From Escherichia coli (lineage in GTDB: Bacteria > Pseudomonadota > Gammaproteobacteria > Enterobacterales > Enterobacteriaceae): a DNA stretch of 64,000 bases. The stretch lies in assembly GCF_046105845.1 (NCBI RefSeq), contig NZ_CP151004.1. One strand, given 5' to 3'. The position numbers and the translations under genes were made by a program. The notes under the pieces are model-generated. The model had not been told where the DNA came from. It made no database searches and saw only the letters and a program-made list of their open reading frames with translations. Below, one piece after another: positions 5,374 through 44,047 of this stretch (the first letter of the stretch is position 1; each line of letters starts with the position of its first letter).

Positions 5374-6228
5374 TTAGTTCTGCGGATTCAACGCGCTAAG
5401 GATAAAATCCACTATCTGTTCGCGATAAACATCGCCGTGACGATCGGAAAAAGCATCAATGTGTTCGCCATCCGGGATTAGGATCAACCGTTTTGGCTCT
5501 TTTGCCAGGCTATACAACTTTTCGCTGTGCTGCCATGGGATAACGTGATCAGCTTTACCGTGAATCAGTAAAAGCGGGATCGGGCTGACGCTGGCGATGT
5601 AATTTTCGCCGCTGTAACTCTCATCAAGTAAGTAGCCACTGCCGGGGATCATCTGGTTGGCGATGGTCGCATAAGAGGCAAATGTGGAGTCGAGGATCAC
5701 CGCACGTATGCCTTCACGATCACCCTGACCAATAACATCCAGAATATTCGCCCCGCCAATACTCTGCCCGAACAGCACCAGCCGTTGTGGGTTTACATCA
5801 CTGCGATGGCGCACCACATTGATGGCACTTTGCGTATCGTCCAGCAATCCGGCCTGGGACGGCGTGCCTTTTGATTTACCAAACCCGCGATAATCAAACA
5901 TAAAAACGTTGAAATTACGCTCGGGTAACCAACTGACCAGCGGCCAGTGGGCGGACATATTTCCGGCATTGCCGTGAGCATGAATAATGGTAGCAATGGC
6001 GTTATCAGCAGGGCCCGTCGAAGAAGGGATAAACCAGCCTTGCAGATGAGTACCGTCCTTAGCCGTAAATTCGACGGATTCCGCCGACCAGGGTTCGGGA
6101 CCGTAAATTTTGTCGTCAGGATAATAGAAGAAATTGATGGCGATGCGCGGTATTAAATAAATGCAGAAGGCAACAACAAAGAGAATAAACAGAATTTTGA
6201 GAACGCGTTTGTTCACTGGCAGCGCCAT
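5374..6228 (-). CDS. yfhR: alpha/beta hydrolase family membrane-anchored protein
   Basis: N-terminal TM segment, hydrolase motifs HGNAGN and GQSIGG; start chosen at MALPVNKR (284 aa). Confidence 0.8.
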   Translation of the reverse strand: MALPVNKRVLKILFILFVVAFCIYLIPRIAINFFYYPDDKIYGPEPWSAESVEFTAKDGTHLQGWFIPSSTGPADNAIATIIHAHGNAGNMSAHWPLVSWLPERNFNVFMFDYRGFGKSKGTPSQAGLLDDTQSAINVVRHRSDVNPQRLVLFGQSIGGANILDVIGQGDREGIRAVILDSTFASYATIANQMIPGSGYLLDESYSGENYIASVSPIPLLLIHGKADHVIPWQHSEKLYSLAKEPKRLILIPDGEHIDAFSDRHGDVYREQIVDFILSALNPQN

Positions 6229-6372
6229 AACCTTTCCTTGCGACTTCTTTATCATCCATTAATCGGGGAAAGATGGTGGGAGAGTGGCGAAAGAAAGTAA
6301 AGCGGTGAGGAAGTATTTCGGAATAGCGCCTGAAAGGCGAGGGCGGGTGAGTGACATCACCCGCCAGAGTCA

Positions 6373-7176
6373 TTAACGCTTCAGGGCGTCGCTTAACTCG
6401 TCACGCATATTCGCCAGCATGGCTTTAACAACGCGCGGGTTACCAGCAACGATGTTACCGGTCAGCATGTAGTTATGACCACCGGTGAAGTCGCTGACGA
6501 TGCCGCCCGCTTCACGAACCAGCAGCTCGCCTGCGGCGAAATCCCACGGACGCAGACCGATTTCAAAGAAACCGTCAACGCGACCCGCAGCAACGTAAGC
6601 CAGATCCAGCGCCGCAGAACCGGTACGACGGAAGTCTGCACATTCGTTGAACAGTTTGCCGACGATGTTGATGTAGGTGGTGGCGTACTGTTTTGCTTTG
6701 AACGGGAAGCCGGTCGCCAGAATAGTACCGTCGAGATCGCGAGCGGTGCTGCCGCGCAGACGGTAGCCGTTCAGCTGTGCGCCCTGACCGCGAGTGGCGG
6801 TGAACAGTTCGTTACGCATAGGATCGTAAACCACAGCAACTTCAGTGCGGCCTTTGATACGAACGGCGATAGATACCGCGAAGTGCGGCAGACGTTTGAT
6901 AAAGTTGGTAGTGCCATCCAGTGGATCGATAACCCATTGAACATCCTGATCAGTACCTTCAAGTTCACCGCTTTCTTCGGTGATGATGGTGTGCTGTGGG
7001 TAAGATTTACGAATCGTGTCGATAATCACCGCTTCGGCAGCTTTATCTACGTTGGTCACGAAGTCGTTACTGCCTTTCTGGCTCGCTTCTACAGCGTCCG
7101 GGGTTTCATAGTTTTTGGCAATTAAATTACCCGCCTTGCGCGCTGCGCGCACGGCGATGTTCAGCATCGGATGCAT
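6373..7176 (-). CDS. suhB: inositol monophosphatase / NusA-associated SuhB
   Basis: 267-aa ORF with IMPase motifs WVIDPLDGT and GRVDGFFE. Confidence 0.93.
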   Translation of the reverse strand: MHPMLNIAVRAARKAGNLIAKNYETPDAVEASQKGSNDFVTNVDKAAEAVIIDTIRKSYPQHTIITEESGELEGTDQDVQWVIDPLDGTTNFIKRLPHFAVSIAVRIKGRTEVAVVYDPMRNELFTATRGQGAQLNGYRLRGSTARDLDGTILATGFPFKAKQYATTYINIVGKLFNECADFRRTGSAALDLAYVAAGRVDGFFEIGLRPWDFAAGELLVREAGGIVSDFTGGHNYMLTGNIVAGNPRVVKAMLANMRDELSDALKR

Positions 7177-7294
7177 CGGTCTCTCTCACTGGATGTTAAA
7201 GAACGGGAAAACGGCGCAGAGTATAGCAGCGAGATCGGCATCTGTCTTCGTTTTATGATAAGATGCGCGAATAATCTTTAGACGAAGAAAGACA

Positions 7295-8035
7295 ATGCTG
7301 CAAAATATTCGAATTGTGCTGGTGGAGACGTCACACACCGGCAATATGGGTTCTGTTGCCCGTGCCATGAAAACAATGGGATTAACCAATCTGTGGCTGG
7401 TTAATCCACTGGTGAAACCTGACTCCCAGGCGATTGCCCTGGCAGCAGGGGCCAGCGATGTGATTGGTAATGCTCATATCGTCGATACGCTCGACGAAGC
7501 GTTAGCCGGTTGTAGCCTGGTGGTGGGCACCAGCGCACGCTCCCGCACGCTGCCGTGGCCGATGCTCGACCCGCGCGAATGCGGTCTGAAAAGCGTCGCT
7601 GAAGCGGCAAATACCCCGGTGGCGCTGGTTTTTGGTCGCGAGCGCGTCGGCTTGACCAATGAAGAGTTGCAGAAATGCCATTATCATGTCGCGATTGCCG
7701 CTAACCCGGAATACAGTTCGCTGAACCTGGCGATGGCGGTTCAGGTTATTGCCTATGAAGTGCGCATGGCCTGGCTTGCAACTCAGGAAAATGGTGAGCA
7801 GGTCGAGCATGAAGAGACGCCGTATCCGCTGGTCGATGATCTGGAGCGTTTTTATGGTCATCTGGAACAAACGCTGCTGGCAACCGGTTTTATCCGTGAA
7901 AACCATCCGGGGCAGGTGATGAATAAATTGCGTCGTCTGTTTACCCGTGCGCGCCCGGAAAGCCAGGAATTGAATATCCTGCGCGGGATTCTGGCTTCTA
8001 TAGAGCAGCAGAATAAAGGTAATAAGGCCGAATAA
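7295..8035 (+). CDS. trmJ: tRNA (cytidine/uridine-2'-O)-methyltransferase (SpoU family)
   Basis: 246-aa ORF, SPOUT-fold motifs, immediately upstream of iscR. Confidence 0.92.
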
Positions 8036-8043
8036 TAGTGGTT

Positions 8044-8127
8044 GCCTGATGCGACGCTTAACGCGTCTTATCAGGCCTGCAGTGCACAGAGCCTCAGGTC
8101 GGATAAGGCGTTCACGTCGCATCCGAC
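8044..8127. repeat. REP (repetitive extragenic palindromic) element pair
   Basis: GCCTGATGCGACGCTTAACGCGTCTTATCAGGCC and GTCGGATAAGGCGTTCACGTCGCATCCGAC, canonical REP palindromes. Confidence 0.8.
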
Positions 8128-8189
8128 AACAGGTACAAACGCCACGATAAAAAAATGGCACTGAAGGTTAAATACCCGACTAAATCAGT

Positions 8190-8300
8190 CAAGTAAATAG
8201 TTGACCAATTTACTCGGGAATGTCAGACTTGACCCTGCTATGCAATACCCCCACTTTTACAATAAAAAACCCCGGGCAGGGGCGAGTTTGAGGTGAAGTA
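8190..8300 (+). promoter_or_regulatory. isc operon promoter / IscR autoregulatory region (candidate)
   Basis: Upstream of iscR; contains TTGACC...TATGCAATA-like elements and a GC hairpin (CCCCGGGCAGGGG) in the leader; exact operator not verified. Confidence 0.45.
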
Positions 8301-8304
8301 AGAC

Positions 8305-8793
8305 ATGAGACTGACATCTAAAGGGCGCTATGCCGTGACCGCAATGCTTGACGTTGCGCTCAACTCTGAAGCGGGCCCGGTACCGTTGGCTGATATTTCC
8401 GAACGTCAGGGAATTTCTCTTTCTTATCTGGAACAACTGTTTTCCCGTCTGCGTAAAAATGGTCTGGTTTCCAGCGTACGTGGACCAGGCGGTGGTTATC
8501 TGTTAGGCAAAGATGCCAGCAGCATCGCCGTTGGCGAAGTGATTAGCGCCGTTGACGAATCTGTAGATGCCACCCGTTGTCAGGGTAAAGGCGGCTGCCA
8601 GGGCGGCGATAAATGCCTGACCCACGCGCTGTGGCGTGATTTGAGCGACCGTCTCACCGGTTTTCTCAACAACATTACTTTAGGCGAACTGGTTAATAAC
8701 CAGGAAGTGCTGGATGTGTCTGGTCGTCAGCATACTCACGACGCGCCACGCACCCGCACACAAGACGCGATCGACGTTAAGTTACGCGCTTAA
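8305..8793 (+). CDS. iscR: Fe-S cluster-containing transcriptional regulator IscR (Rrf2 family)
   Basis: 162 aa; Rrf2 HTH; cluster-ligand Cys residues [13 protein letters not shown]. Confidence 0.95.
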
Positions 8794-9033
8794 TTTAACC
8801 GTCCTGTTTCGTGTTGCATCTGCGTTGACTGCACATACTCACTCTGGTCACTTACTTATGTAAGCTCCCGGAGATTCGTAAGTTTGTCAACTTGCTGAAA
8901 CCCGAAACAGTTAGGTTAAAGATAACAAGATATTAGAATCAGGCCGGGGCGTATCGCGCTCCGTAAACACGGTCGTACATCCAGCCGGTAGCCTGGTTCC
9001 TTGCATTGAGTGATGTACGGAGTTTATAGAGCA

Positions 9034-10248
9034 ATGAAATTACCGATTTATCTCGACTACTCCGCAACCACGCCGGTGGACCCGCGTGTTGCCGAGAAAA
9101 TGATGCAGTTTATGACGATGGACGGAACCTTTGGTAACCCGGCCTCCCGTTCTCACCGTTTCGGCTGGCAGGCTGAAGAAGCGGTAGATATCGCCCGTAA
9201 TCAGATTGCCGAACTGGTCGGCGCTGACCCGCGTGAAATCGTCTTTACCTCTGGTGCAACCGAATCTGACAACCTGGCGATCAAAGGTGCAGCCAACTTT
9301 TATCAGAAAAAAGGCAAGCACATCATCACCAGTAAAACCGAACACAAAGCGGTACTGGATACCTGCCGTCAGCTGGAGCGCGAAGGTTTCGAAGTCACCT
9401 ACCTGGCACCGCAGCGTAATGGCATTATCGACCTGAAAGAACTGGAAGCAGCGATGCGTGACGACACCATCCTCGTTTCCATCATGCACGTAAATAACGA
9501 AATCGGCGTGGTGCAGGATATCGCGGCTATCGGCGAAATGTGCCGTGCTCGCGGCATTATCTATCACGTTGATGCAACCCAGAGCGTGGGCAAACTGCCT
9601 ATCGACCTGAGCCAGTTGAAAGTTGACCTGATGTCATTCTCCGGTCACAAAATCTATGGCCCGAAAGGTATCGGTGCGCTATATGTGCGTCGTAAACCGC
9701 GCGTACGCATCGAAGCGCAAATGCACGGCGGCGGTCACGAGCGCGGTATGCGTTCCGGCACTCTGCCTGTTCACCAGATCGTTGGTATGGGCGAAGCCTA
9801 TCGCATCGCAAAAGAAGAGATGGCGACCGAGATGGAACGTCTGCGCGGCCTGCGTAACCGTCTGTGGAACGGCATCAAAGATATCGAAGAAGTTTACCTG
9901 AACGGTGACCTGGAACACGGTGCGCCGAACATTCTCAACGTCAGCTTCAACTACGTTGAAGGTGAGTCGCTGATTATGGCGCTGAAAGACCTCGCGGTTT
10001 CTTCAGGTTCCGCCTGTACGTCAGCAAGCCTCGAACCGTCCTACGTGCTGCGCGCGCTGGGGCTGAACGACGAGCTGGCACATAGCTCTATCCGTTTCTC
10101 TTTAGGTCGTTTTACTACTGAAGAAGAGATCGACTACACCATCGAGTTAGTTCGTAAATCCATCGGTCGTCTGCGTGACCTTTCTCCGCTGTGGGAAATG
10201 TACAAGCAGGGCGTGGATCTGAACAGCATCGAATGGGCACATCATTAA
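9034..10248 (+). CDS. iscS: cysteine desulfurase
   Basis: Start at [14 protein letters not shown] (404 aa); PLP-binding SGHK motif; ORF-track start at 9010 is an extension. Confidence 0.95.
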
Positions 10249-10275
10249 TCGGTATCGGAATCAGGAGAATTTATA

Positions 10276-10662
10276 ATGGCTTACAGCGAAAAAGTTATCG
10301 ACCATTACGAGAATCCGCGTAACGTGGGTTCCTTTGACAACAACGACGAGAACGTCGGCAGCGGCATGGTGGGTGCACCGGCATGTGGCGACGTGATGAA
10401 GTTGCAGATTAAAGTCAACGATGAAGGTATCATTGAAGACGCGCGTTTTAAAACTTACGGCTGCGGTTCTGCTATCGCTTCCAGCTCCCTGGTCACCGAA
10501 TGGGTGAAAGGGAAGTCTCTCGACGAAGCGCAGGCGATCAAAAACACCGATATTGCTGAAGAACTTGAACTGCCTCCGGTGAAAATTCACTGTTCTATTC
10601 TGGCAGAAGACGCGATCAAAGCCGCCATTGCGGACTATAAAAGCAAACGTGAAGCAAAATAA
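10276..10662 (+). CDS. iscU: Fe-S cluster assembly scaffold
   Basis: 128 aa; conserved Cys motifs GAPACGD, YGCGSAIAS, LPPVKIHCS. Confidence 0.96.
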   Translation: MAYSEKVIDHYENPRNVGSFDNNDENVGSGMVGAPACGDVMKLQIKVNDEGIIEDARFKTYGCGSAIASSSLVTEWVKGKSLDEAQAIKNTDIAEELELPPVKIHCSILAEDAIKAAIADYKSKREAK

Positions 10663-10678
10663 GAGTTGAGGTTTGGTT

Positions 10679-11002
10679 ATGTCGATTACACTGAGCGACA
10701 GTGCAGCAGCGCGAGTAAATACCTTTCTGGCTAACCGCGGCAAAGGGTTTGGCCTGCGTCTGGGCGTGAGAACCTCCGGATGTTCAGGTATGGCTTATGT
10801 ACTGGAATTTGTTGACGAACCGACGCCGGAAGACATCGTGTTTGAAGACAAAGGCGTGAAAGTCGTGGTCGATGGCAAAAGCCTGCAATTTCTGGACGGT
10901 ACGCAGCTGGACTTCGTAAAAGAAGGCCTGAACGAAGGGTTTAAATTCACCAACCCGAACGTCAAAGATGAGTGTGGTTGCGGCGAAAGCTTCCACGTTT
11001 GA
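10679..11002 (+). CDS. iscA: Fe-S cluster insertion protein (A-type carrier)
   Basis: 107 aa starting [14 protein letters not shown]-terminal CGCGESF. Confidence 0.95.
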
Positions 11003-38017: not shown

Positions 38018-39595
38018 ATGACGGAAAACATTCATAAGCATCGCATCCTCATTCTGGACTTCGGTTCTCAGTACACTCAACTGGTTGCGCGCCGCGTGCG
38101 TGAACTGGGTGTTTACTGCGAACTGTGGGCGTGGGATGTGACAGAAGCACAAATTCGTGACTTCAACCCAAGCGGCATTATTCTTTCCGGCGGCCCGGAA
38201 AGCACCACCGAAGAAAACAGCCCGCGTGCGCCGCAGTATGTTTTTGAAGCAGGCGTACCGGTATTCGGCGTTTGCTATGGCATGCAGACCATGGCAATGC
38301 AGTTGGGCGGTCACGTTGAAGCCTCTAACGAACGTGAATTTGGCTACGCGCAGGTTGAAGTCGTAAACGACAGCGCACTGGTTCGCGGTATTGAAGATGC
38401 TCTGACCGCAGACGGTAAACCTCTGCTCGATGTCTGGATGAGCCACGGCGATAAAGTTACCGCTATCCCGTCCGACTTCGTCACCGTAGCCAGCACCGAA
38501 AGCTGCCCGTTTGCCATTATGGCTAACGAAGAAAAACGCTTCTATGGCGTACAGTTCCACCCGGAAGTGACTCACACCCGTCAGGGTATGCGCATGCTGG
38601 AGCGTTTTGTGCGTGATATCTGCCAGTGTGAAGCCCTGTGGACGCCAGCGAAAATTATCGACGATGCTGTAGCTCGCATCCGCGAGCAGGTAGGCGACGA
38701 TAAAGTCATCCTCGGCCTCTCTGGTGGTGTGGATTCCTCCGTAACCGCAATGCTGCTGCACCGCGCTATCGGTAAAAACCTGACTTGCGTATTCGTCGAC
38801 AACGGCCTGCTGCGTCTCAACGAAGCAGAGCAGGTTCTGGATATGTTTGGCGATCACTTTGGTCTGAACATTGTTCACGTTCCGGCAGAAGATCGCTTCC
38901 TGTCAGCGTTGGCCGGCGAAAACGATCCGGAAGCAAAACGTAAAATCATCGGGCGCGTTTTCGTTGAAGTATTCGATGAAGAAGCACTGAAACTGGAAGA
39001 CGTGAAGTGGCTGGCGCAGGGCACTATCTACCCTGACGTTATTGAATCTGCCGCATCTGCAACCGGTAAAGCACACGTCATCAAATCTCACCACAACGTG
39101 GGCGGCCTGCCGAAAGAGATGAAGATGGGCCTGGTTGAACCGCTGAAAGAGCTGTTCAAAGACGAAGTGCGTAAGATTGGTCTGGAGCTGGGCCTGCCGT
39201 ACGACATGCTGTACCGTCACCCGTTCCCGGGACCAGGCCTCGGCGTTCGTGTACTGGGCGAAGTGAAGAAAGAGTACTGCGACCTGCTGCGCCGTGCTGA
39301 CGCCATCTTCATTGAAGAACTGCGTAAAGCGGACCTGTACGACAAAGTCAGCCAGGCGTTCACCGTCTTCCTGCCGGTACGTTCCGTTGGTGTAATGGGC
39401 GATGGTCGTAAGTATGACTGGGTTGTTTCTCTGCGTGCTGTCGAAACCATCGACTTTATGACCGCACACTGGGCGCATCTGCCGTACGATTTCCTCGGTC
39501 GCGTTTCCAACCGCATTATCAATGAAGTGAACGGTATTTCCCGCGTGGTGTATGACATCAGCGGCAAGCCGCCAGCTACCATTGAGTGGGAGTGA
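38018..39595 (+). CDS. guaA: GMP synthase (glutamine-hydrolysing)
   Basis: 525 aa; GATase motifs GVCYGMQ, ATP-PPase SGGVDSS; ends ...IEWE. Confidence 0.96.
39581..39595 (+). repeat. left copy of islet-flanking direct repeat (functional guaA 3' end)
   Basis: ATTGAGTGGGAGTGA, 13/15 identical to right copy; encodes IEWE-stop. Confidence 0.75.
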
Positions 39596-39634
39596 GGCTA
39601 TTATTTAAACTATTGTTTTATTTGATTTAGTGAG

Positions 39635-39675
39635 TGCCATTGATGATATTGACTGCATTATCAATGGCATTTTTC
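39635..39675 (+). terminator. islet-borne intrinsic terminator now serving guaA
   Basis: 10-bp stem TGCCATTGAT / ATCAATGGCA with 15-nt loop, followed by TTTTT. Confidence 0.55.
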
Positions 39676-39913
39676 ATGGTATAAGGCCGACGCTGAATCG
39701 AAGATATAGCAAATACCATGTGACCCTATCAGCAAATGCCATGGTATCGACAACCGGGGGCATTGCAGCGCTGTGCTGATGCCATCGATGCCCGCTTTTG
39801 GTCAGAACCGCTCTCTCGACCCAAGCCTCCAGATCGTTAAATATGCGCCAGAGGAGCACCTCGTGATCGAAATTGTGAACAAGACAGCCGCCGCTCGGAA
39901 TCGAAGTATCCAT
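39674..39913 (-). CDS. hypothetical 79-aa ORF inside islet (possible gene remnant)
   Basis: ORF only; no recognisable motifs; Trp-rich; no clear SD. Confidence 0.15.
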   Translation of the reverse strand: MDTSIPSGGCLVHNFDHEVLLWRIFNDLEAWVERAVLTKSGHRWHQHSAAMPPVVDTMAFADRVTWYLLYLRFSVGLIP

Positions 39914-39980
39914 ATGGGTGAATAAAGTTTGCGGAAAACACGCTGAGAAAATAGAAAAGCGTCAATGAAGGGACATAGCA

Positions 39981-41261
39981 ATGGCGATTAACGGAGAGGA
40001 CGGTGTTAGTGCAGTCACCGTGGATGAACTACTCAAGCAAGGCCTTCGGATACCGAACTATCAACGCCCATACAGTTGGGAAGTATCGACCGCTCTACAA
40101 CTGGTGGATGATCTTAGCGAAGCTCTTCGAGATACCGAAAGAAAAGATATTCCCTATGTTTTGGGTGCAATCATTCTTCACGATGATGGTGAGTATCTCA
40201 ATGTAGTCGACGGACAGCAACGTCTGCTGACTTTGCGAATGATTCTTGCGGCCTTAGATCCGATAAATCATCAGATTTCGGTGTCTGGTAACAGCGAAAC
40301 TCCTGTCTCCCTGGTTTGGATAGAGCTTCAAAGGCGCCTGTCGCAGTTGGAAGATAAAAAAGAATTTTTGGATTTTATCTGTCACAAATGTCAGTTGGTG
40401 CGTATTGTGACGGACGATATTGATGAGGCATTTCGTGTCTTTGATTCCCAGAACTATCGCGGCAAACCGCTTGCCCCTCATGACTTGCTCAAAGCACACC
40501 ACCTCCGCGAAATGCACGATGAGTCCGCTGCTATGAAAGTGGCTGTCGTTGAGGCTTGGGAAGCCGTAAATGATGAGGATCTGGACAGGCTTTTTTCTAC
40601 TTTTTTATACCGGATATCCAAGTGGTCACGAGGCGAAAGCTCGCTCGAATTTGCTATTCGGGACATCGGGATGTTTAAGGGAATTTCATCACGATCCCAC
40701 AGATCATTTTCGCCAAATCTGCGATATCACCTTGCAGCACAAGCCGCTATGCCACTTCTAAGTGCATGGGCGGTGTCCTCTACACATGATGCACGAAATG
40801 CCGGGCGCAGCCGCTTTCAGCTTGATGCCCCGATAATCGCTGGGCGCTCATTTTTCGAGATGGTGACATTCATGCTTGACGAATTGAAGATACTGGAAAA
40901 AGAGGTTATCGACAGAGGTTTCAAAAACTTTGGCCCATCTCAAAGTCGCTACCGCTACGTGTACGAATTGTTCATTGCCGCGCTGCTTTGCTATACAAAC
41001 AAGTTTGGCGATGAAGATGTGGATGAAGTGCGAAATAGATTATTCGCATGGGCATATGCCTTGCGGGTCGAGTTACTTCGTGTGCAATTTGTATCTGCTG
41101 ACAACCGAGCTCGAGGTAAAAACGATGCAAATAAATCGCCTTTTGTTTTGCTACGCAACGCGATGACTGGAAGTGTTGTCCGCAAACTTCCAATAGCAAG
41201 TCAGCCATACAACGATAACCACGAAAAGGAACTCGTTGCTTTTATCAAGGGGCTGCAATGA
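39981..41261 (+). CDS. DUF262 (ParB/Srx-like NTP-binding nuclease-family N-terminal domain) protein, no DUF1524
   Basis: Motifs IPNYQRPYSW (40050-40079), DGQQRL (40209-40226), FRVFDSQNYRGKPLAPHDLLKAH; SD AAGGGA upstream; 426 aa. Confidence 0.85.
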   Translation: MAINGEDGVSAVTVDELLKQGLRIPNYQRPYSWEVSTALQLVDDLSEALRDTERKDIPYVLGAIILHDDGEYLNVVDGQQRLLTLRMILAALDPINHQISVSGNSETPVSLVWIELQRRLSQLEDKKEFLDFICHKCQLVRIVTDDIDEAFRVFDSQNYRGKPLAPHDLLKAHHLREMHDESAAMKVAVVEAWEAVNDEDLDRLFSTFLYRISKWSRGESSLEFAIRDIGMFKGISSRSHRSFSPNLRYHLAAQAAMPLLSAWAVSSTHDARNAGRSRFQLDAPIIAGRSFFEMVTFMLDELKILEKEVIDRGFKNFGPSQSRYRYVYELFIAALLCYTNKFGDEDVDEVRNRLFAWAYALRVELLRVQFVSADNRARGKNDANKSPFVLLRNAMTGSVVRKLPIASQPYNDNHEKELVAFIKGLQ

Positions 41262-43210
41262 GCAAGAAGGAGTTGAGACCCGAACTGATAACAGTAGGCA
41301 AGCTATTCACGGGCTATTATCTGATTCCTATTTATCAACGGAACTATGCTTGGCGGGCCGAACAGATTGAGCAACTTATCAGCGATATTCAAGGCTCGGT
41401 GGTTGGGGGCCAGGACGACTATTTTCTTGGGAACCTTGTTGTAATCAAGCGGGGTAGAGAGGACGAGTTCGAGGTCATAGATGGACAACAACGACTTACA
41501 ACCCTCTATCTGCTTCTGACCTTCCTGGAGCAAGACGGTGAGGGTGGGAAGCTGTCGATTGGCCATGCAGGCCACTTGCAATATGAGTCGCGCGCACGGG
41601 CAACGGAAGCCCTGCGGCGAGTAGCACAGGAGGCGGCTAAGGGGCACGTCCGACCGCAGGGCTCCACGAGTAATGCAGATGCTGGCATCCATGAAGGCTA
41701 CAGCATCATCAATCAGTTCTTCAAACAAAATGAAACCCTTAATCGCTCACGCGAAAAATTCTCCGATTTCTTGCTAAAGAAGGTTACTGTCGTCCGTGCC
41801 TCGCTGCCACCCAATACCGACCTCAATCGCTACTTCGAGATCATGAACACTCGTGGGCAGCAACTCAAGCAGGTTGATATTGTTAAGGCTCGCCTGATGA
41901 GCAAGCTGCCCAATCAATATGAACGCGAATGCTTCGCGTGGGTTTGGGATGCCTGTGCTGACATGGATTCTTATGTCCAGATGTCTCTGACCCGTGGTGA
42001 CACCAGTTTACGAAACAAAGTATTTGGCGATGAATGGTCCTGGCTGGAGGTGACCAGCTTCGCGTCGCTAATGGAAAGTCGTCCGCAATCCGACATCAGT
42101 TCATTAAGGCAATCCTCCGAAGGGGTATCGTTGTCCTTGGATGAGGCGTTGTCAAAATACGCTAAAGAGATCGAGTCAAATTCCACTGAAGACGAGGGCA
42201 ACGAGCGGTTTCGTTCGACTATTGAGTTTCCGGCCTTTCTGCTACACGTTCTAAGAATTATGAAAGGCGATGAGGTCGAAGACGAAGGCCAGCTTGACGA
42301 CAAGCGCCTCATCAAGTCATTTGACGACGCCGTAAATAATGTACCCGATGCTAAAGCCGATTGGGTGCGTAGCTTTGCATTTATGCTTCTTAAGTGCCGT
42401 AACCTCTTCGATGGCTTCATCTTGAAGCGTCAATTCACGGCGAACATCGGTGACGATGGCGATTGGTCTCTCCAGCGATTGAAGAAAGGCGGTGCGGACA
42501 AGAAGCCAGCCCCGACGTACATCCATGTTTTCTCGGCCAGCAATGGAAACTTGGAGGAGGACAGCGGTGCTGACCCACATACCCGAGATGTATTGTTGCT
42601 TCAGTCCATGCTTCGGATTACCTACACTTCTCCGCGAACGATGCACTGGATTACCAAAGTTCTTCGCTGGCTATCCGTTAAAGCCCCTCAAGACGCGAAA
42701 CATGCGGATCTTGCCGATTTGTTGAAGGGGTATGCCCGCAGCAAGGTTAAAGAGACATTCCCCTTTGAGGAAGATCAGCAACCACAAGGGTTTGGTATCA
42801 GCCGTATCGTCTTTTCATACCTCGACTATCTTCTGTTGAGTGATTCCTCAAAACGAGATTTCAAATTTCAGTTCAGAACTTCCATTGAGCACTTTTATCC
42901 ACAGCATCCGGACAAAGAACAGTCGGGCGCGGCTGTTTCAGGTTCTAGCCTTAACCTGCTTGGCAACCTCGCGCTCGTAAGCGTCAGCGCGAACTCAAAA
43001 TTCAGCAATAGCCTTCCCAGAGCGAAGGCCGAAAACTTCAAGGATACGATTGAACTTCAAAGTCCCAAGCTCAAGAGAATGGCGGAAATCGCTCGAAATA
43101 CAAGCTGGGACGATCAGCAGATAACAGCACATCATGAAGAGATGGTGACATTGCTTCGTGATGATGTAAGTCTGGTGGAGGCAAGCGGAAGATCCTACCC
43201 GGGGCGTTGA
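41258..43210 (+). CDS. GmrSD-like fusion protein: N-terminal DUF262 + C-terminal DUF1524 (His-Me finger/HNH-like endonuclease)
   Basis: N-term IPIYQRNYAW, DGQQRL (41480-), FEIMNTRGQQL...DIVKARL; C-term SIEHFYPQH (EH at 42887-42892) and LLGNLALVSVSAN; 650 aa; ATGA start/stop overlap with upstream gene. Confidence 0.85.
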   Translation: MSKKELRPELITVGKLFTGYYLIPIYQRNYAWRAEQIEQLISDIQGSVVGGQDDYFLGNLVVIKRGREDEFEVIDGQQRLTTLYLLLTFLEQDGEGGKLSIGHAGHLQYESRARATEALRRVAQEAAKGHVRPQGSTSNADAGIHEGYSIINQFFKQNETLNRSREKFSDFLLKKVTVVRASLPPNTDLNRYFEIMNTRGQQLKQVDIVKARLMSKLPNQYERECFAWVWDACADMDSYVQMSLTRGDTSLRNKVFGDEWSWLEVTSFASLMESRPQSDISSLRQSSEGVSLSLDEALSKYAKEIESNSTEDEGNERFRSTIEFPAFLLHVLRIMKGDEVEDEGQLDDKRLIKSFDDAVNNVPDAKADWVRSFAFMLLKCRNLFDGFILKRQFTANIGDDGDWSLQRLKKGGADKKPAPTYIHVFSASNGNLEEDSGADPHTRDVLLLQSMLRITYTSPRTMHWITKVLRWLSVKAPQDAKHADLADLLKGYARSKVKETFPFEEDQQPQGFGISRIVFSYLDYLLLSDSSKRDFKFQFRTSIEHFYPQHPDKEQSGAAVSGSSLNLLGNLALVSVSANSKFSNSLPRAKAENFKDTIELQSPKLKRMAEIARNTSWDDQQITAHHEEMVTLLRDDVSLVEASGRSYPGR

Positions 43211-43400
43211 CTTCTTTGAATAACCGCTTTTGGACGAAAGTCCCTTGTGGAGTGCAAGTTGTCAGTCTAAAAGCGTTTTGCGTCAGGCGACACGATCAGT
43301 ACAGCTCCCAGGTTTTCTTACCATGGTATTTTGTGTGGTATCGACATGCAAATATAATGCTATTCTATTGATTTTACAGTGTTTTAAGGCGGCATTAATC

Positions 43401-43415
43401 ATCGAGTGGGAATGA
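43401..43415 (+). repeat. right copy of islet-flanking direct repeat (displaced ancestral guaA 3' end)
   Basis: ATCGAGTGGGAATGA; would encode IEWE-stop; immediately followed by the A-tract/hairpin/T-tract terminator. Confidence 0.75.
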
Positions 43416-43436
43416 TTTGACCCTGCACTATGAATG

Positions 43437-43470
43437 AACAAAACCCTCTGTTACTACAGAGGGTTTTTTA
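43437..43470. terminator. bidirectional intrinsic terminator (ancestral guaA / yfgI)
   Basis: AACAAAA-CCCTCTG-ttacta-CAGAGGG-TTTTTT; A-run upstream and T-run downstream. Confidence 0.8.
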
Positions 43471-43507
43471 TCTTCAAGAATTATAGGCTTGAAGTTACTT
43501 ACATCGA

Positions 43508-44047
43508 TTAATTAAACCAGCTGTCCGATTTGTTCTCTTCTGCTTTGCCCACGCTTTTCATCAGATCGCGACCGCCTTCAGTCATATTTCTGTTTGCGTC
43601 AGCTTCAGATTGCACCACATCGGTTTGCGCAGCTTTGTGCTTCAGTTCCTGATCGATAAATTCGTTTTCTCGCTTAACGCGGGCTTCTTCTTTCGCCAGC
43701 GCCAGTTTTTGTTTCTGAATCTCTAAGCTGCGTAGCTCATCTTCATAACTTTGATCGCGTTTTTTGTCCGCAGTGGCTTCGGCATCCAGTTTATCCTGAC
43801 GAGCTTTCTTATTTGCCGCTGCCGTTGCCGCTCTTTTGTTAGCGGCGGCCTGGGCGTTTGCGCGACGTTGCTTCTCTTGCTGGATTTCCCTGTTGCGCTC
43901 CGCGACCCATTCGTCATGCTGCCTTTGCTCTTCATTTTTACCTTGCTGTTCCGCTTCTGCGACAGCAGAGAGTTGATCCTGCAATGATGAGGCGATAGCC
44001 GGATAGCTTAAGGAGGCTAAGATGGCGCAAAGAAAAACTTTCTTCAT
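43508..44047 (-). CDS. yfgI: DUF4223-type periplasmic coiled-coil protein YfgI
   Basis: 179 aa; signal peptide; Lys/Glu/Gln-rich; synteny. Confidence 0.85.
   Translation of the reverse strand: MKKVFLCAILASLSYPAIASSLQDQLSAVAEAEQQGKNEEQRQHDEWVAERNREIQQEKQRRANAQAAANKRAATAAANKKARQDKLDAEATADKKRDQSYEDELRSLEIQKQKLALAKEEARVKRENEFIDQELKHKAAQTDVVQSEADANRNMTEGGRDLMKSVGKAEENKSDSWFN

What the first reader, a model, noticed from the sequence alone, without database searches (positions are those of the whole stretch)
39596..39980. Islet left arm: new terminator for guaA and a 79-aa orphan ORF
Just after the guaA stop there is a 10-bp-stem hairpin (TGCCATTGAT/ATCAATGGCA, 39635-39669) plus T5. This islet-derived sequence now provides guaA termination. 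The remaining ~300 bp hold only a minus-strand 79-aa ORF (39674-39913) with no recognisable domain and no good ribosome-binding site, possibly the eroded remnant of a mobility or regulatory gene.
Basis: seen in the sequence. Interest (0 to 1): 0.35.

Follow-up and report, generated by a model that had tools for sequence, protein, structure and literature searches.

The report
Integrase-less defence cassette's attachment arm
The 385 bases after guaA are best read as the left attachment-site arm of a 3.8-kb phage-defence cassette that has no integrase and probably borrows one from other elements that insert at the end of guaA; the hairpin is only a weak terminator candidate and the 79-aa ORF is not a gene.

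Summary
The hairpin (39635-39644 / 39660-39669, T5 at 39670-39674) and the minus-strand 79-aa ORF (39674-39913) are both there, and the sequence is islet-derived.

The interpretation needs replacing. The islet (39584-43411) is bounded by direct copies of GAGTGGGA. This is the published crossover core of the guaA-specific GIsul2/PIME integrases, and it lies within the published Uetakevirus attP core.

Both arms carry the 8-mer CATGGTAT: 4 of the 6 copies in the 64-kb window. The right arm has a tandem pair at -82/-70 from the core, against -81/-69 or -80/-68 in nine of the ten other element ends compared. The left arm has four sites at +79, +91, +129(-) and +156. This matches the arms of two integrase-bearing PIMEs, shifted by 61-62 bp.

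The same 3.82-kb unit occurs:
- directly at guaA in E. coli (52 genomes), Kluyvera and Providencia
- in tandem behind at least eight different elements
- on about 470 plasmids, nearly all Klebsiella

The break always falls exactly at the core. The unit has no integrase or integrase remnant. It therefore fits a cis-mobilizable element (CIME), analogous to the CR2-sul2 unit.

The hairpin scores as a borderline terminator. The ORF is frame-shifted or stopped in most copies. This is a new member of a known kind, of moderate interest.

The parts
38018..39595 (+). guaA (GMP synthase). Its last 12 nt contain the attachment core. The final A of the core and the following GTGA, which includes the stop codon, are supplied by the islet.
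   Evidence: ORF list; RefSeq annotation of an identical locus; comparison with the K-12 empty site.
39584..39591 (+). attL core GAGTGGGA, the crossover region. Host sequence lies to the left and islet sequence to the right.
   Evidence: Direct repeat with 43404-43411. Host guaA of Providencia and Kluyvera diverges up to ATTGAGTGGG, and the islet is at least 95% identical after it. The published core of the GIsul2 integrase is 5'-GAGTGGGA-3' (PMC9376610).
39592..39631 (+). Core-proximal, AT-rich part of the P' arm. GTGA completes guaA. The left end GAGTGGGAGTGA is also the left end of the CR2-sul2 unit.
   Evidence: 32% GC in 39600-39699; invariant in all copies except 2 positions; CR2 terIS GGGAGTGACGGGCACTGGC.
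39632..39672 (+). Hairpin: 13-16 bp stem and 9-nt loop. The perfect repeat is 39635-39644 / 39660-39669, followed by T5 at 39670-39674. It is a weak or borderline intrinsic-terminator candidate for guaA. Its two halves are also an inverted pair of the arm-site-like motif (AATGGCAC at +50 minus strand, AATGGCAT at +79 plus strand).
   Evidence: Folding; d-score -2.5 here and +15.5 in the common allele; not called by the consensus terminator scan; all variation among copies lies in the loop; motif map.
39663..39682 (+). P'1-P'2: tandem arm-type repeats AATGGCAT-tttt-CATGGTAT, at +79 and +91 from the core.
   Evidence: The same pair with a 4-bp spacer is seen in PIME EcPF16 (AATGGAAT-tttt-GATGGTAC, +141/+153), and the same pair type sits in the P arms of the GIsul2 right end and the Uetakevirus prophage. 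There is an 18-bp identity with the prophage P arm. In the common allele P'2 is degenerate (TATGGTTT).
39713..39720 (-). P'3: inverted arm-type repeat, ATACCATG on the plus strand, at +129.
   Evidence: It corresponds to +190/+191(-) in the two PIMEs (shift 61-62). Invariant in all copies.
39740..39747 (+). P'4: arm-type repeat CATGGTAT(CGAC) at +156, 27 bp after P'3. The same 27-bp spacing is found in both PIMEs.
   Evidence: invariant in all copies; TGGTATCGACA is repeated in the right arm.
39748..39980 (+). Distal arm and leader of the defence operon. Function unassigned. It has no conserved ORF, no consensus sigma-70 promoter and no Rfam match. A Shine-Dalgarno-like GAAGGGA lies at 39967-39973, 7 nt before the ATG.
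   Evidence: It is about twice as variable among copies as the core-proximal half, with 1-bp indels and a 20-bp deletion allele.
39674..39913 (-). The 79-aa ORF: a chance ORF, not a gene.
39981..41261 (+). Cargo gene 1: GmrSD_N (DUF262) + DUF7834.
   Evidence: Pfam E = 4e-28 and 7e-55; PADLOC HEC-06, Orf5 and SspE-type N-domain hits.
41258..43210 (+). Cargo gene 2: GmrSD_N + GmrSD_C, a full GmrSD-like type IV restriction architecture.
   Evidence: Pfam E = 3e-33 and 1.4e-14.
43322..43341 (+). P-arm tandem arm-type repeats CATGGTAT-tttg-TGTGGTAT, at -82 and -70 from the attR core.
   Evidence: Nine of the ten other P arms compared have a pair at -81/-69 or -80/-68; the Uetakevirus arm does not.
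43404..43411 (+). attR core GAGTGGGA, followed by the native guaA end (ATGA) and the native downstream sequence.
43440..43467 (+). Displaced native guaA/yfgI terminator. It now lies downstream of the defence operon.
   Evidence: Terminator scan; identical to the K-12 intergenic hairpin; d-score +32.

Best explanation
Window 39584-39980 is the attL site (crossover core plus P' arm) of a 3.82-kb integrase-less integrative cassette (39584-43411). The cassette carries a two-gene GmrSD-like defence operon.

**Proposed mechanism**
- A heterobivalent tyrosine integrase binds the arm-type repeats with its N-terminal arm-binding domain. The integrase would come from a co-resident guaA-specific element: a PIME/GIsul2-type IME, or possibly a Uetakevirus or P2-like prophage. 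The repeats are P'1-P'4 in the left arm and a tandem pair in the right arm.
- Its core-binding and catalytic domains bind the GAGTGGGA cores.
- With an AlpA-type directionality factor it recombines attL with attR. This would release a circle with attP ...TTAATCATC-GAGTGGGA-GTGAGGCT....
- The unit can also travel as the distal part of a composite with the integrase-bearing element.

**Housekeeping roles**
- The element replaces the last base of the final Glu codon and the stop codon of guaA (GAA TGA becomes GAG TGA).
- It places a hairpin plus U-run 40 nt after the stop. This may act as a weak substitute terminator.
- That hairpin is built on the first arm-site pair.
- The native terminator is moved 3.8 kb downstream, behind the defence operon.

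**Status of each step**
- Shown here: the boundaries, the repeats and their spacing, the absence of an integrase, the many contexts, and the non-coding status of the ORF.
- Taken from the literature: the integrase family acts on GAGTGGGA cores and can move an integrase-less unit.
- Inferred: the repeats bind Int, this cassette is mobilised in trans or in cis, and the hairpin terminates guaA.
For: **Boundaries**
- GAGTGGGA is directly repeated at 39584 and 43404. The K-12 empty site reads ...CATTGAGTGGGAATGATTTG..., with one copy.

**The site is a known attB**
- About 960 of 5425 E. coli genomes have the junction split 12-18 bp before the guaA end.
- Occupants include a Uetakevirus-type prophage with the repeat ATTGAGTGGGAATGATT (published as attP/attB, PMC9782041).
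- Occupants also include PIME/GIsul2-type IMEs (PMC9376610 and the bioRxiv preprint 10.64898/2026.01.12.698999).

**The unit keeps exact ends in many contexts**
- It lies directly at guaA in 52 E. coli genomes, and in Kluyvera sichuanensis and Providencia rettgeri. In both of those hosts guaA diverges right up to the core.
- It lies apart from guaA in 28 E. coli genomes. In the two examined it sits in tandem behind different IMEs, HKUOPY1 and EcPF16, each ending in its own P arm.
- In metagenome contigs it follows further distinct P arms. In all, at least eight different element ends precede the unit, one from a P2-like prophage.
- It is on about 470 plasmids, 464 of them Klebsiella, flanked by GAGTGGG on both sides. 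There it lies behind a decayed element with a truncated integrase.

**Arm-type repeats**
- CATGGTAT occurs 6 times in 64 kb against 1.15 expected; 4 copies are in the arms. The relaxed motif occurs 7 times against 0.62.
- The P-arm tandem pair lies at -82/-70 in the islet, and at -81/-69 or -80/-68 in nine of the ten other P arms compared. The Uetakevirus arm lacks the pair at that position.
- The P' sites at +79, +91, +129(-) and +156 correspond to +141, +153, +190(-), +217 (EcPF16) and +140, +152, +191(-), +218 (HKUOPY1), shifted by 61-62.

**Integrases**
- The integrases of these elements have Arm-DNA-bind_3 + Phage_int_M + Phage_integrase domains. The IME and prophage integrases are 53% identical.

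**Precedent**
- GIsul2 Int excises and integrates the integrase-less CR2-sul2 unit between GAGTGGGA cores in recA- E. coli. That unit's left end is GAGTGGGAGTGAC..., against GAGTGGGAGTGAG... here.

**No other function found**
- No integrase remnant, conserved ORF or Rfam family in the arm.
Against: - No excised circle (attP junction) was found among the 11 metagenome and 2 genome hits, so mobility of the unit by itself is not directly shown.
- Solo copies could instead arise when the neighbouring IME excises from a composite.
- Binding of Int to the CATGGTAT repeats is inferred from position and enrichment only.
- In the commonest allele the P'2 repeat is degenerate (TATGGTTT).
- The P' sites lie 62 bp closer to the core than in the PIMEs, and this may or may not be tolerated.
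- Apart from the motif and the core, the arm has no nucleotide similarity to PIME arms.
- The Klebsiella plasmid copies look vertically inherited within one plasmid lineage. They count as one or a few events, not hundreds.
- In the two plasmid records I read across the junction (pA1966-IMP and pLGP4), the right-hand flank was the same: relB/stbD then umuDC.
Confidence: 0.8

Rival explanations
1. The arm is an inert spacer whose only function is a new intrinsic terminator for guaA, plus an orphan 79-aa ORF that is the eroded remnant of a mobility or regulatory gene.
For: - A stable hairpin plus T-run begins 40 nt after the stop.
- The native terminator is displaced.
- The integrase-bearing elements examined at this site each carry a terminator at the equivalent place.
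- A sister cassette in L017 does carry a 5' integrase remnant in its left arm, so remnants of this kind exist.
Against: - The ORF's frame is not conserved. It is 72 aa with a different N-terminal half in the common allele, 49 aa in A30, and has a stop in Kluyvera.
- 9 of 10 substitutions are nonsynonymous or stop.
- It has no domain hit and no RBS.
- The arm has no integrase similarity.
- The hairpin is borderline as a terminator in this allele (d = -2.5) and was missed by the consensus scan.
- This reading does not explain the enriched, precisely spaced repeats on both arms.
Confidence: 0.1
2. Fossil arms. The islet is the immobile relic of a decayed PIME whose int-to-tra genes were deleted. 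Its att arms are no longer used. It spreads only by homologous recombination of the guaA-yfgI flanks, or passively on plasmids.
For: - Decay of such elements is seen directly: L017 has an int remnant of about 55 codons, and the Klebsiella plasmid has a truncated int.
- No circle junction was found.
- P'2 is degenerate in the common allele.
- Within E. coli, flanking homology could move the islet between lineages.
Against: - The unit is at least 95% identical in hosts whose guaA is far more diverged (the Providencia match is 83% identical overall, guaA included), and the switch falls exactly at the core.
- It is joined to at least eight different P arms and to a non-guaA plasmid site, always at the core.
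- Homologous recombination cannot produce these junctions.
- The core-proximal half with the repeats is more conserved than the distal half.
Confidence: 0.15
3. The hairpin is a recombination feature rather than a terminator. It would be an inverted pair of Int-type half-sites, or an RDF or IHF binding palindrome. guaA transcription would then read through into the defence operon, which has no recognisable promoter of its own.
For: - Both halves contain the nATGGyAy motif in inverted orientation, at +50(-) and +79(+).
- The T-run is the conserved 4-bp spacer of an arm-site pair that occurs without any hairpin in EcPF16, GIsul2 and the prophage.
- The terminator score is weak.
- No sigma-70 consensus promoter was found in 39596-39985.
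- The hairpin is retained on plasmids and in tandem copies where no guaA lies upstream.
Against: - A 13-bp perfect RNA stem followed by 5-6 U is still a plausible terminator. The common allele scores +15.5.
- The islet lacks the 62-bp segment that carries the canonical terminator in PIMEs, so some replacement would be expected.
- The two roles are not mutually exclusive.
Confidence: 0.3

Closest known systems
CR2-sul2 unit of genomic island GIsul2 (Zhang et al. 2022, PMC9376610)
   Same: - It is an integrase-less unit bounded by two att sites that share the core GAGTGGGA.
- It lies at the distal (attR) side of a guaA-integrated island.
- Its left end reads GAGTGGGAGTGA....
- It has been shown experimentally to be excised and integrated by the island's integrase.
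   Different: - Its cargo is rcr2 (ISCR2) plus sul2 and other resistance genes, not a GmrSD-like defence pair.
- Beyond the first 12-13 nt its arm sequence is unrelated.
- For the present unit no experiment exists.
- The present unit is often found alone at guaA: 52 E. coli genomes, Kluyvera and Providencia.
Cis-mobilizable elements (CIMEs) and tandem accretion, as defined for ICESt1/ICESt3 of Streptococcus thermophilus (review PMC5704250)
   Same: - It has lost, or never had, integration and transfer genes but keeps attL and attR.
- It is found in tandem with integrase-bearing elements of the same site specificity.
- Arrays arise by integration into a resident att site.
   Different: - The phylum, integrase family and target gene all differ.
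- Here the partners include IMEs and prophages rather than ICEs.
PIMEs / GIsul2-type IMEs integrated next to guaA (bioRxiv 10.64898/2026.01.12.698999; PMC9376610)
   Same: - The attB and core are the same.
- The arm-type repeat and the architecture of the P and P' arms are the same.
- Defence genes sit at the distal end.
- In strain EcPF16 the islet lies directly behind the IME that the preprint calls PIME1EcPF16.
   Different: - The islet has none of the PIME core genes (int, alpA, repA, trbJKL, oriT/relaxase).
- Its P' sites lie 62 bp closer to the core.
- The GC-rich terminator of the PIME arms is missing.
Phage lambda attP (P and P' arms with arm-type sites for a heterobivalent integrase)
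   Same: - Arm-type repeats sit on both sides of a short crossover core: two on one arm, three or four on the other.
- The core-proximal DNA is AT-rich.
- The integrase family has a dedicated N-terminal arm-binding domain.
   Different: - There is no sequence relationship.
- The integrases here are P4-type (Arm-DNA-bind_3).
- The binding sites are predicted, not footprinted.
Rho-independent terminators supplied by integrating elements (seen here in Uetakevirus prophage and PIME attL arms)
   Same: A hairpin plus U-run starts 40-50 nt after the restored guaA stop codon.
   Different: - The stem is AT-rich and 13 bp long, with a 9-nt loop and 5 U.
- Its score is far lower than the GC-rich 7-8 bp stems of the relatives.
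- It overlaps a predicted protein-binding site.

Membership tests
Att-bounded unit of the guaA-specific GIsul2/PIME integrase family | Both ends carry the crossover core 5'-GAGTGGGA-3'. | tested here: met
   39584-39591 and 43404-43411. The same is seen in every other copy. The core is as published.
Att-bounded unit of the guaA-specific GIsul2/PIME integrase family | Integrated at the 3' end of guaA, with the reading frame restored. | tested here: met
   GAG TGG GAG TGA replaces GAG TGG GAA TGA. guaA is annotated as intact in islet-bearing genomes.
Att-bounded unit of the guaA-specific GIsul2/PIME integrase family | Arms carry the family's arm-type repeats in the family's arrangement. | tested here: met
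   The P pair lies at -82/-70, against -81/-69 or -80/-68 in nine of the ten other arms compared. The P' sites equal the PIME offsets minus 61-62.
Att-bounded unit of the guaA-specific GIsul2/PIME integrase family | Excision and integration depend on the integrase. | not testable with these tools
   Only indirect evidence: exact core junctions in more than 10 contexts. No circle junction was seen.
PIME / GIsul2 (integrative mobilizable element proper) | Encodes its own tyrosine integrase and an AlpA-type factor. | tested here: not met
   Only two genes, both DUF262/GmrSD. tblastn with two family integrases gives no hit in the arms, and the best E-values (0.016-0.08) fall inside the cargo genes.
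PIME / GIsul2 (integrative mobilizable element proper) | Replication and transfer module (repA/repC, trbJKL, oriT or relaxase). | tested here: not met
   Absent from 39584-43411. Present in the neighbouring IMEs of HKUOPY1 and EcPF16.
CIME (cis-mobilizable element) | No integration or transfer genes, but attL and attR retained. | tested here: met
   Definition from PMC5704250.
CIME (cis-mobilizable element) | Occurs in tandem (accretion) with an integrase-bearing element of the same specificity. | tested here: met
   In 28 E. coli genomes the arm is separated from guaA. The two examined, HKUOPY1 and EcPF16, have an internal core. Metagenome arrays show the same.
CIME (cis-mobilizable element) | Mobilised together with, or by, the partner element. 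| not testable with these tools
   Needs excision and transfer assays.
Rho-independent (intrinsic) terminator | A stable stem-loop immediately followed by a U-rich tract, scoring as a terminator. | tested here: inconclusive
   The stem is 13-16 bp, at -15 to -19 kcal/mol, followed by U5 (U6 in the common allele). d-scores are -2.5 and +15.5, against +32 to +47 for the native and relatives' terminators. The consensus scan did not call it.
Rho-independent (intrinsic) terminator | Transcript 3' ends map to the U-tract. | not testable with these tools
   No transcriptome data for an islet-bearing strain.
Protein-coding gene (the 79-aa ORF) | Reading frame and length conserved among copies, with substitutions biased to synonymous sites. 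| tested here: not met
   Frameshifts, truncation and a stop codon are seen among copies. 9 of 10 substitutions are nonsynonymous or stop.
Protein-coding gene (the 79-aa ORF) | Homologues outside this locus, or a recognisable domain. | tested here: not met
   The 18 hits in 5.8 billion proteins appear to be translations of the same arm, judged from their sequences and not from genomic context. One is a DUF262 fusion artefact. No Pfam or PADLOC hit.

The most novel reading that the evidence does not exclude
The end of guaA acts as a shared docking site where self-contained, integrase-less 'att cassettes' accumulate in tandem. Each cassette has complete P and P' arms, and here the cargo is a GmrSD-like defence pair. 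The cassettes are shuffled by whichever guaA-specific integrase is present, from a PIME/GIsul2 IME, a Uetakevirus or a P2-like phage. This would be functionally like an integron array, but without a resident integrase. It would explain how defence islets with no mobility genes colonise a hotspot across genera and reach plasmids. In this cassette the arm is compacted so that one arm-site pair doubles as the replacement terminator of the target gene.
Probability: 0.4. Interest if true: 0.65.

Novelty: new member of a known kind. Interest (0 to 1): 0.45.

Why it matters
Many phage-defence islets sit at chromosomal hotspots with no mobility gene, and it is often unclear how they got there.

This case gives a concrete, testable answer for one widespread cassette. 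It occurs in 81 of 5426 complete E. coli genomes, in Kluyvera and Providencia, and on about 470 plasmids that are nearly all Klebsiella. It keeps a full attachment site for a family of integrases encoded elsewhere.

- **For annotation:** short 'non-coding arms' next to guaA should be read as att sites. Composite 'islands' at guaA, such as the one in strain EcPF16, should be split at internal GAGTGGGA cores.
- **For resistance and defence epidemiology:** the same integrases that move sul2 units may also move defence cassettes.

The terminator question is minor. It matters for how guaA and the defence operon are expressed.

Tried and rejected
1. **Transposon with a 7-bp target duplication, or an IS200/IS605- or IS91-type single-strand element using the hairpin as an end structure.** Rejected. 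The same GAGTGGG(A) flanks the unit at unrelated sites. There are no terminal inverted repeats and no transposase. The sequence is the published integrase core.
2. **Integrase or other gene remnant in the arm.** tblastn with the IME and prophage integrases found nothing in the arm. Pfam on four arm ORFs gave nothing above noise. PADLOC gave nothing.
3. **A structured RNA.** No Rfam match in 39400-43600 at E <= 1.
4. **A promoter for the defence operon.** No plus-strand consensus site was found in the arm. A relaxed scan gave only two 8/12 matches, both inside the hairpin.
5. **Intermediate relatives of the cargo that would separate 'arm' from 'cargo'.** A plasmid tblastn found only 95-99% copies or relatives below 60% identity.
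6. **A circular or attP junction.** None among 2 genome and 11 metagenome hits to the left-end 24-mer.
7. **Nucleotide similarity of the arm to anything other than its own copies.** None in E. coli genomes or plasmids, even in distant mode.
8. **Whether the preprint on PIMEs tested this DUF262 pair.** Its text does not say.
Full report
**Observation**

The window is the E. coli xseA-guaB-guaA region. guaA ends at 39595.

The hairpin is as described. TGCCATTGAT (39635-39644) and ATCAATGGCA (39660-39669) extend to a 13-16 bp stem with a 9-nt loop. It folds at -19.1 kcal/mol (z = -3.3), or -20.4 (z = -5.1) in the commoner allele, and is followed by T5 at 39670-39674.

The minus-strand ORF at 39674-39913 (79 aa) exists. 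It has no Pfam or PADLOC hit and no Shine-Dalgarno sequence.

The sequence is foreign. In K-12, guaA runs directly into the hairpin that lies at 43440-43467 here.

**Boundaries**

Alignment with the empty site shows an insertion bounded by a direct repeat. The left end is CATTGAGTGGGAGTGA and the right end is CATCGAGTGGGAATGA. The shared GAGTGGGA lies at 39584-39591 and 43404-43411.

The islet supplies the last base of guaA's final Glu codon and a new stop codon.

Between the repeats are:
- a 385-bp non-coding left arm
- two co-oriented genes (GmrSD_N+DUF7834, and GmrSD_N+GmrSD_C)
- a 200-bp right arm

There is no integrase.

**The site is a known attachment site**

About 960 of 5425 complete E. 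coli genomes have the guaA|yfgI junction split 12-18 bp before the guaA end.

One occupant is a Uetakevirus-type prophage with the repeat ATTGAGTGGGAATGATT. This is the published attP/attB core of vB_EcoP_ZX5 (PMC9782041).

Others are GIsul2/PIME-type integrative mobilizable elements.

Zhang et al. 2022 (PMC9376610) showed three things:
- GIsul2 Int recombines att sites that share the core GAGTGGGA.
- attB is the 3' end of guaA.
- Int also excises and integrates the integrase-less CR2-sul2 unit, whose left end reads GAGTGGGAGTGAC....

The islet's left end reads GAGTGGGAGTGAG....

**Arm-type repeats**

CATGGTAT occurs 6 times in the 64-kb window against 1.15 expected. Four copies are in the two arms: 39675(+), 39713(-), 39740(+) and 43322(+). 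A relaxed motif, nATGG[ACT]An, occurs 7 times in the left arm against 0.62 in shuffles.

In the right arm, CATGGTAT-tttg-TGTGGTAT lies at -82/-70 from the core. Nine of the ten other element ends compared have a pair at -81/-69 or -80/-68. These comprise two IMEs, the GIsul2 right end, the plasmid remnant and five of the six metagenomic arms (in L025 the pair is a GACGGTAA variant and in L023 the second repeat is degenerate). The tenth is the Uetakevirus prophage. It has GACGGTAT at -82 but no second repeat at -70, and its CATGG pair sits further out at -113/-101.

| Element | Site 1 | Site 2 | Site 3 (inverted) | Site 4 |
|---|---|---|---|---|
| Islet, left arm | +79 | +91 | +129 | +156 |
| PIME in EcPF16 | +141 | +153 | +190 | +217 |
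| IME in HKUOPY1 | +140 | +152 | +191 | +218 |

The order, orientation and spacing are the same, shifted by 61-62 bp. The extra segment in the IMEs holds a GC-rich terminator.

The integrases of these elements have an N-terminal Arm-DNA-bind_3 domain. I therefore read the repeats as arm-type integrase sites. This is an inference, because no binding data exist.

The same pair and spacer occur without a hairpin in EcPF16, at the GIsul2 right end and in the prophage. An 18-bp identity links the islet arm to the prophage P arm.

**The unit behaves as a discrete, site-specific element**

The left arm occurs in 81 of 5426 E. coli genomes.
- In 52 it is joined directly to guaA.
- In 28 it is separate from guaA.

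In the two of those 28 that I examined, HKUOPY1 and EcPF16, the unit lies behind different IMEs. Each IME ends in its own P arm and an internal core.

The unit is also at guaA in Kluyvera sichuanensis and Providencia rettgeri. Host guaA diverges right up to ATTGAGTGGG, and the islet is at least 95% identical after it.

Eleven metagenome contigs add further distinct upstream P arms. One belongs to a P2-like prophage end, and some contigs come from hosts with different guaA ends.

In contig L017 the islet is the last member of an array. The preceding 2.7-kb cassette has a PIME-type P' arm, a remnant of about 55 integrase codons, and one large ORF.

About 470 plasmids, 464 of them Klebsiella and mostly conjugative IncF types, carry the unit flanked by GAGTGGG on both sides. 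It lies behind a decayed element whose integrase lacks the catalytic domain.

In the two records I read across the junction, the right-hand plasmid flank was the same (relB/stbD then umuDC). I have not compared the rest. They should be counted as one or a few events, not hundreds.

All full copies are the same 3.82-kb unit. This matches the definition of a cis-mobilizable element (PMC5704250).

**The ORF**

Among copies the arm carries 1-bp indels. The commonest allele gives a 72-aa ORF with an unrelated N-terminal half. A30 gives 49 aa, and Kluyvera has an in-frame stop.

9 of 10 substitutions are nonsynonymous or stop.

The only 'homologues' among 5.8 billion proteins appear to be translations of the same arm, judged from their sequences. 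Several have a frame-shifted middle.

It is not a gene, and there is no integrase remnant. No Rfam family matches.

**The hairpin as a terminator**

In favour:
- The two IMEs and the prophage examined at this site each carry a terminator starting about 50 nt after the guaA stop.
- The islet lacks the segment that holds it in the IMEs.
- All variation among copies of the hairpin is in the loop.

Against:
- It is AT-rich with a 9-nt loop.
- My implementation of the d'Aubenton-Carafa score uses a formula recalled from memory. It gives -2.5 for this allele and +15.5 for the common one, against +32 (native), +36 and +47 (IMEs) and +45 (prophage).
- Both halves of the hairpin are inverted copies of the arm-site-like motif.

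I rate terminator function at about 0.5, probably leaky. No consensus promoter precedes the defence operon. Read-through from guaBA is therefore a possible source of its expression, which is an inference. The displaced native terminator now follows the operon.

**Verdict**

The arm is best explained as attL (core plus P' arm) of an integrase-less, GmrSD-carrying CIME of the guaA-specific GIsul2/PIME integrase family. It is a new member of a known kind, closest to the CR2-sul2 unit.

I give confidence 0.8 for the att-arm reading. I give lower confidence to mobilisation of the unit on its own, because no circle junction was seen.

Noticed in passing
guaA|yfgI junction (window 39580-39595 and 43404-43470); E. 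coli genome collection: About 18% of complete E. coli genomes (about 960 of 5425) have the guaA attB occupied, and only 81 of them by this islet. The occupants I looked at were a Uetakevirus-type prophage and two IMEs. The rest were not classified.
   Followed up: partly
L005 (plasmid pLGP4, MF116002.1) 5459-10848: An IncF plasmid recovered in E. coli J53 carries a complete guaA gene fused to the islet. Plasmid sequence (relB/umuDC) lies to the right and IS elements to the left. This looks like recombination between a plasmid-borne islet and a chromosomal guaA-islet, or IS-mediated capture.
   Followed up: no
L017 3160-5834 (human-gut metagenome contig OKVY01000265.1): A second integrase-less cassette lies in tandem in front of the islet. 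It has a PIME-type P' arm with a degraded terminator, the first ~55 codons of an integrase (MLTDTKLRNIKSKDKLYKVNDRDGLY...), a 589-aa ORF with no Pfam hit, its own P arm and a core. A DndB-like gene lies upstream of the preceding core.
   Followed up: partly
L020 235-7103 and L018 (Klebsiella plasmid context): On the Klebsiella plasmids the islet is the distal part of a roughly 10.7-kb composite. The composite starts at another core (GAGTGGGAGTGATCCCACG...). It then holds a truncated integrase (246 aa, no catalytic domain), a resolvase fragment, an N6_Mtase/Eco57I-type protein and two unknown ORFs. In pA1966-IMP (L003) this part is further cut by IS1 and IS3.
   Followed up: partly
L008 9241-17272 (E. 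coli HKUOPY1): Here the islet's left arm is interrupted by ISSen4 at arm position 243 and the first DUF262 gene is truncated. tet(A), strAB and sul2, plus a GIsul2-type right end, follow before yfgI. A defence cassette has been overwritten by resistance genes inside the same att-bounded array.
   Followed up: no
L007 7440-7475 (Uetakevirus-type prophage attL arm): The prophage carries a near copy of the native guaA terminator stem (CCCTCTGT...ACAGAGGG) just after the restored guaA stop. The phage replaces the host terminator with a look-alike.
   Followed up: no
L025 1-5334 (metagenome contig OHMP01000033.1): A P2-like prophage end (GPO scaffold, terminase, portal) abuts the islet's left core. 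Its P arm carries the variant tandem repeat GACGGTAA-aact-GACGGTAA. At least three classes of element therefore share this attB.
   Followed up: partly
L012 about 4840 (E. coli 2021CK-01784), equivalent to window 39935-39954: One allele has a 20-bp deletion (GCGGAAAACACGCTGAGAAA) just upstream of the first DUF262 gene. The gene is still annotated as intact. This might be informative about where the operon's promoter or leader lies.
   Followed up: no
window 39576-39583 (guaA CTACCATT, just left of the core): The host sequence directly flanking the core is itself an inverted instance of the arm-repeat-like motif (AATGGTAG on the minus strand). Core-type and arm-type sites of this integrase family may therefore resemble each other.
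   Followed up: no
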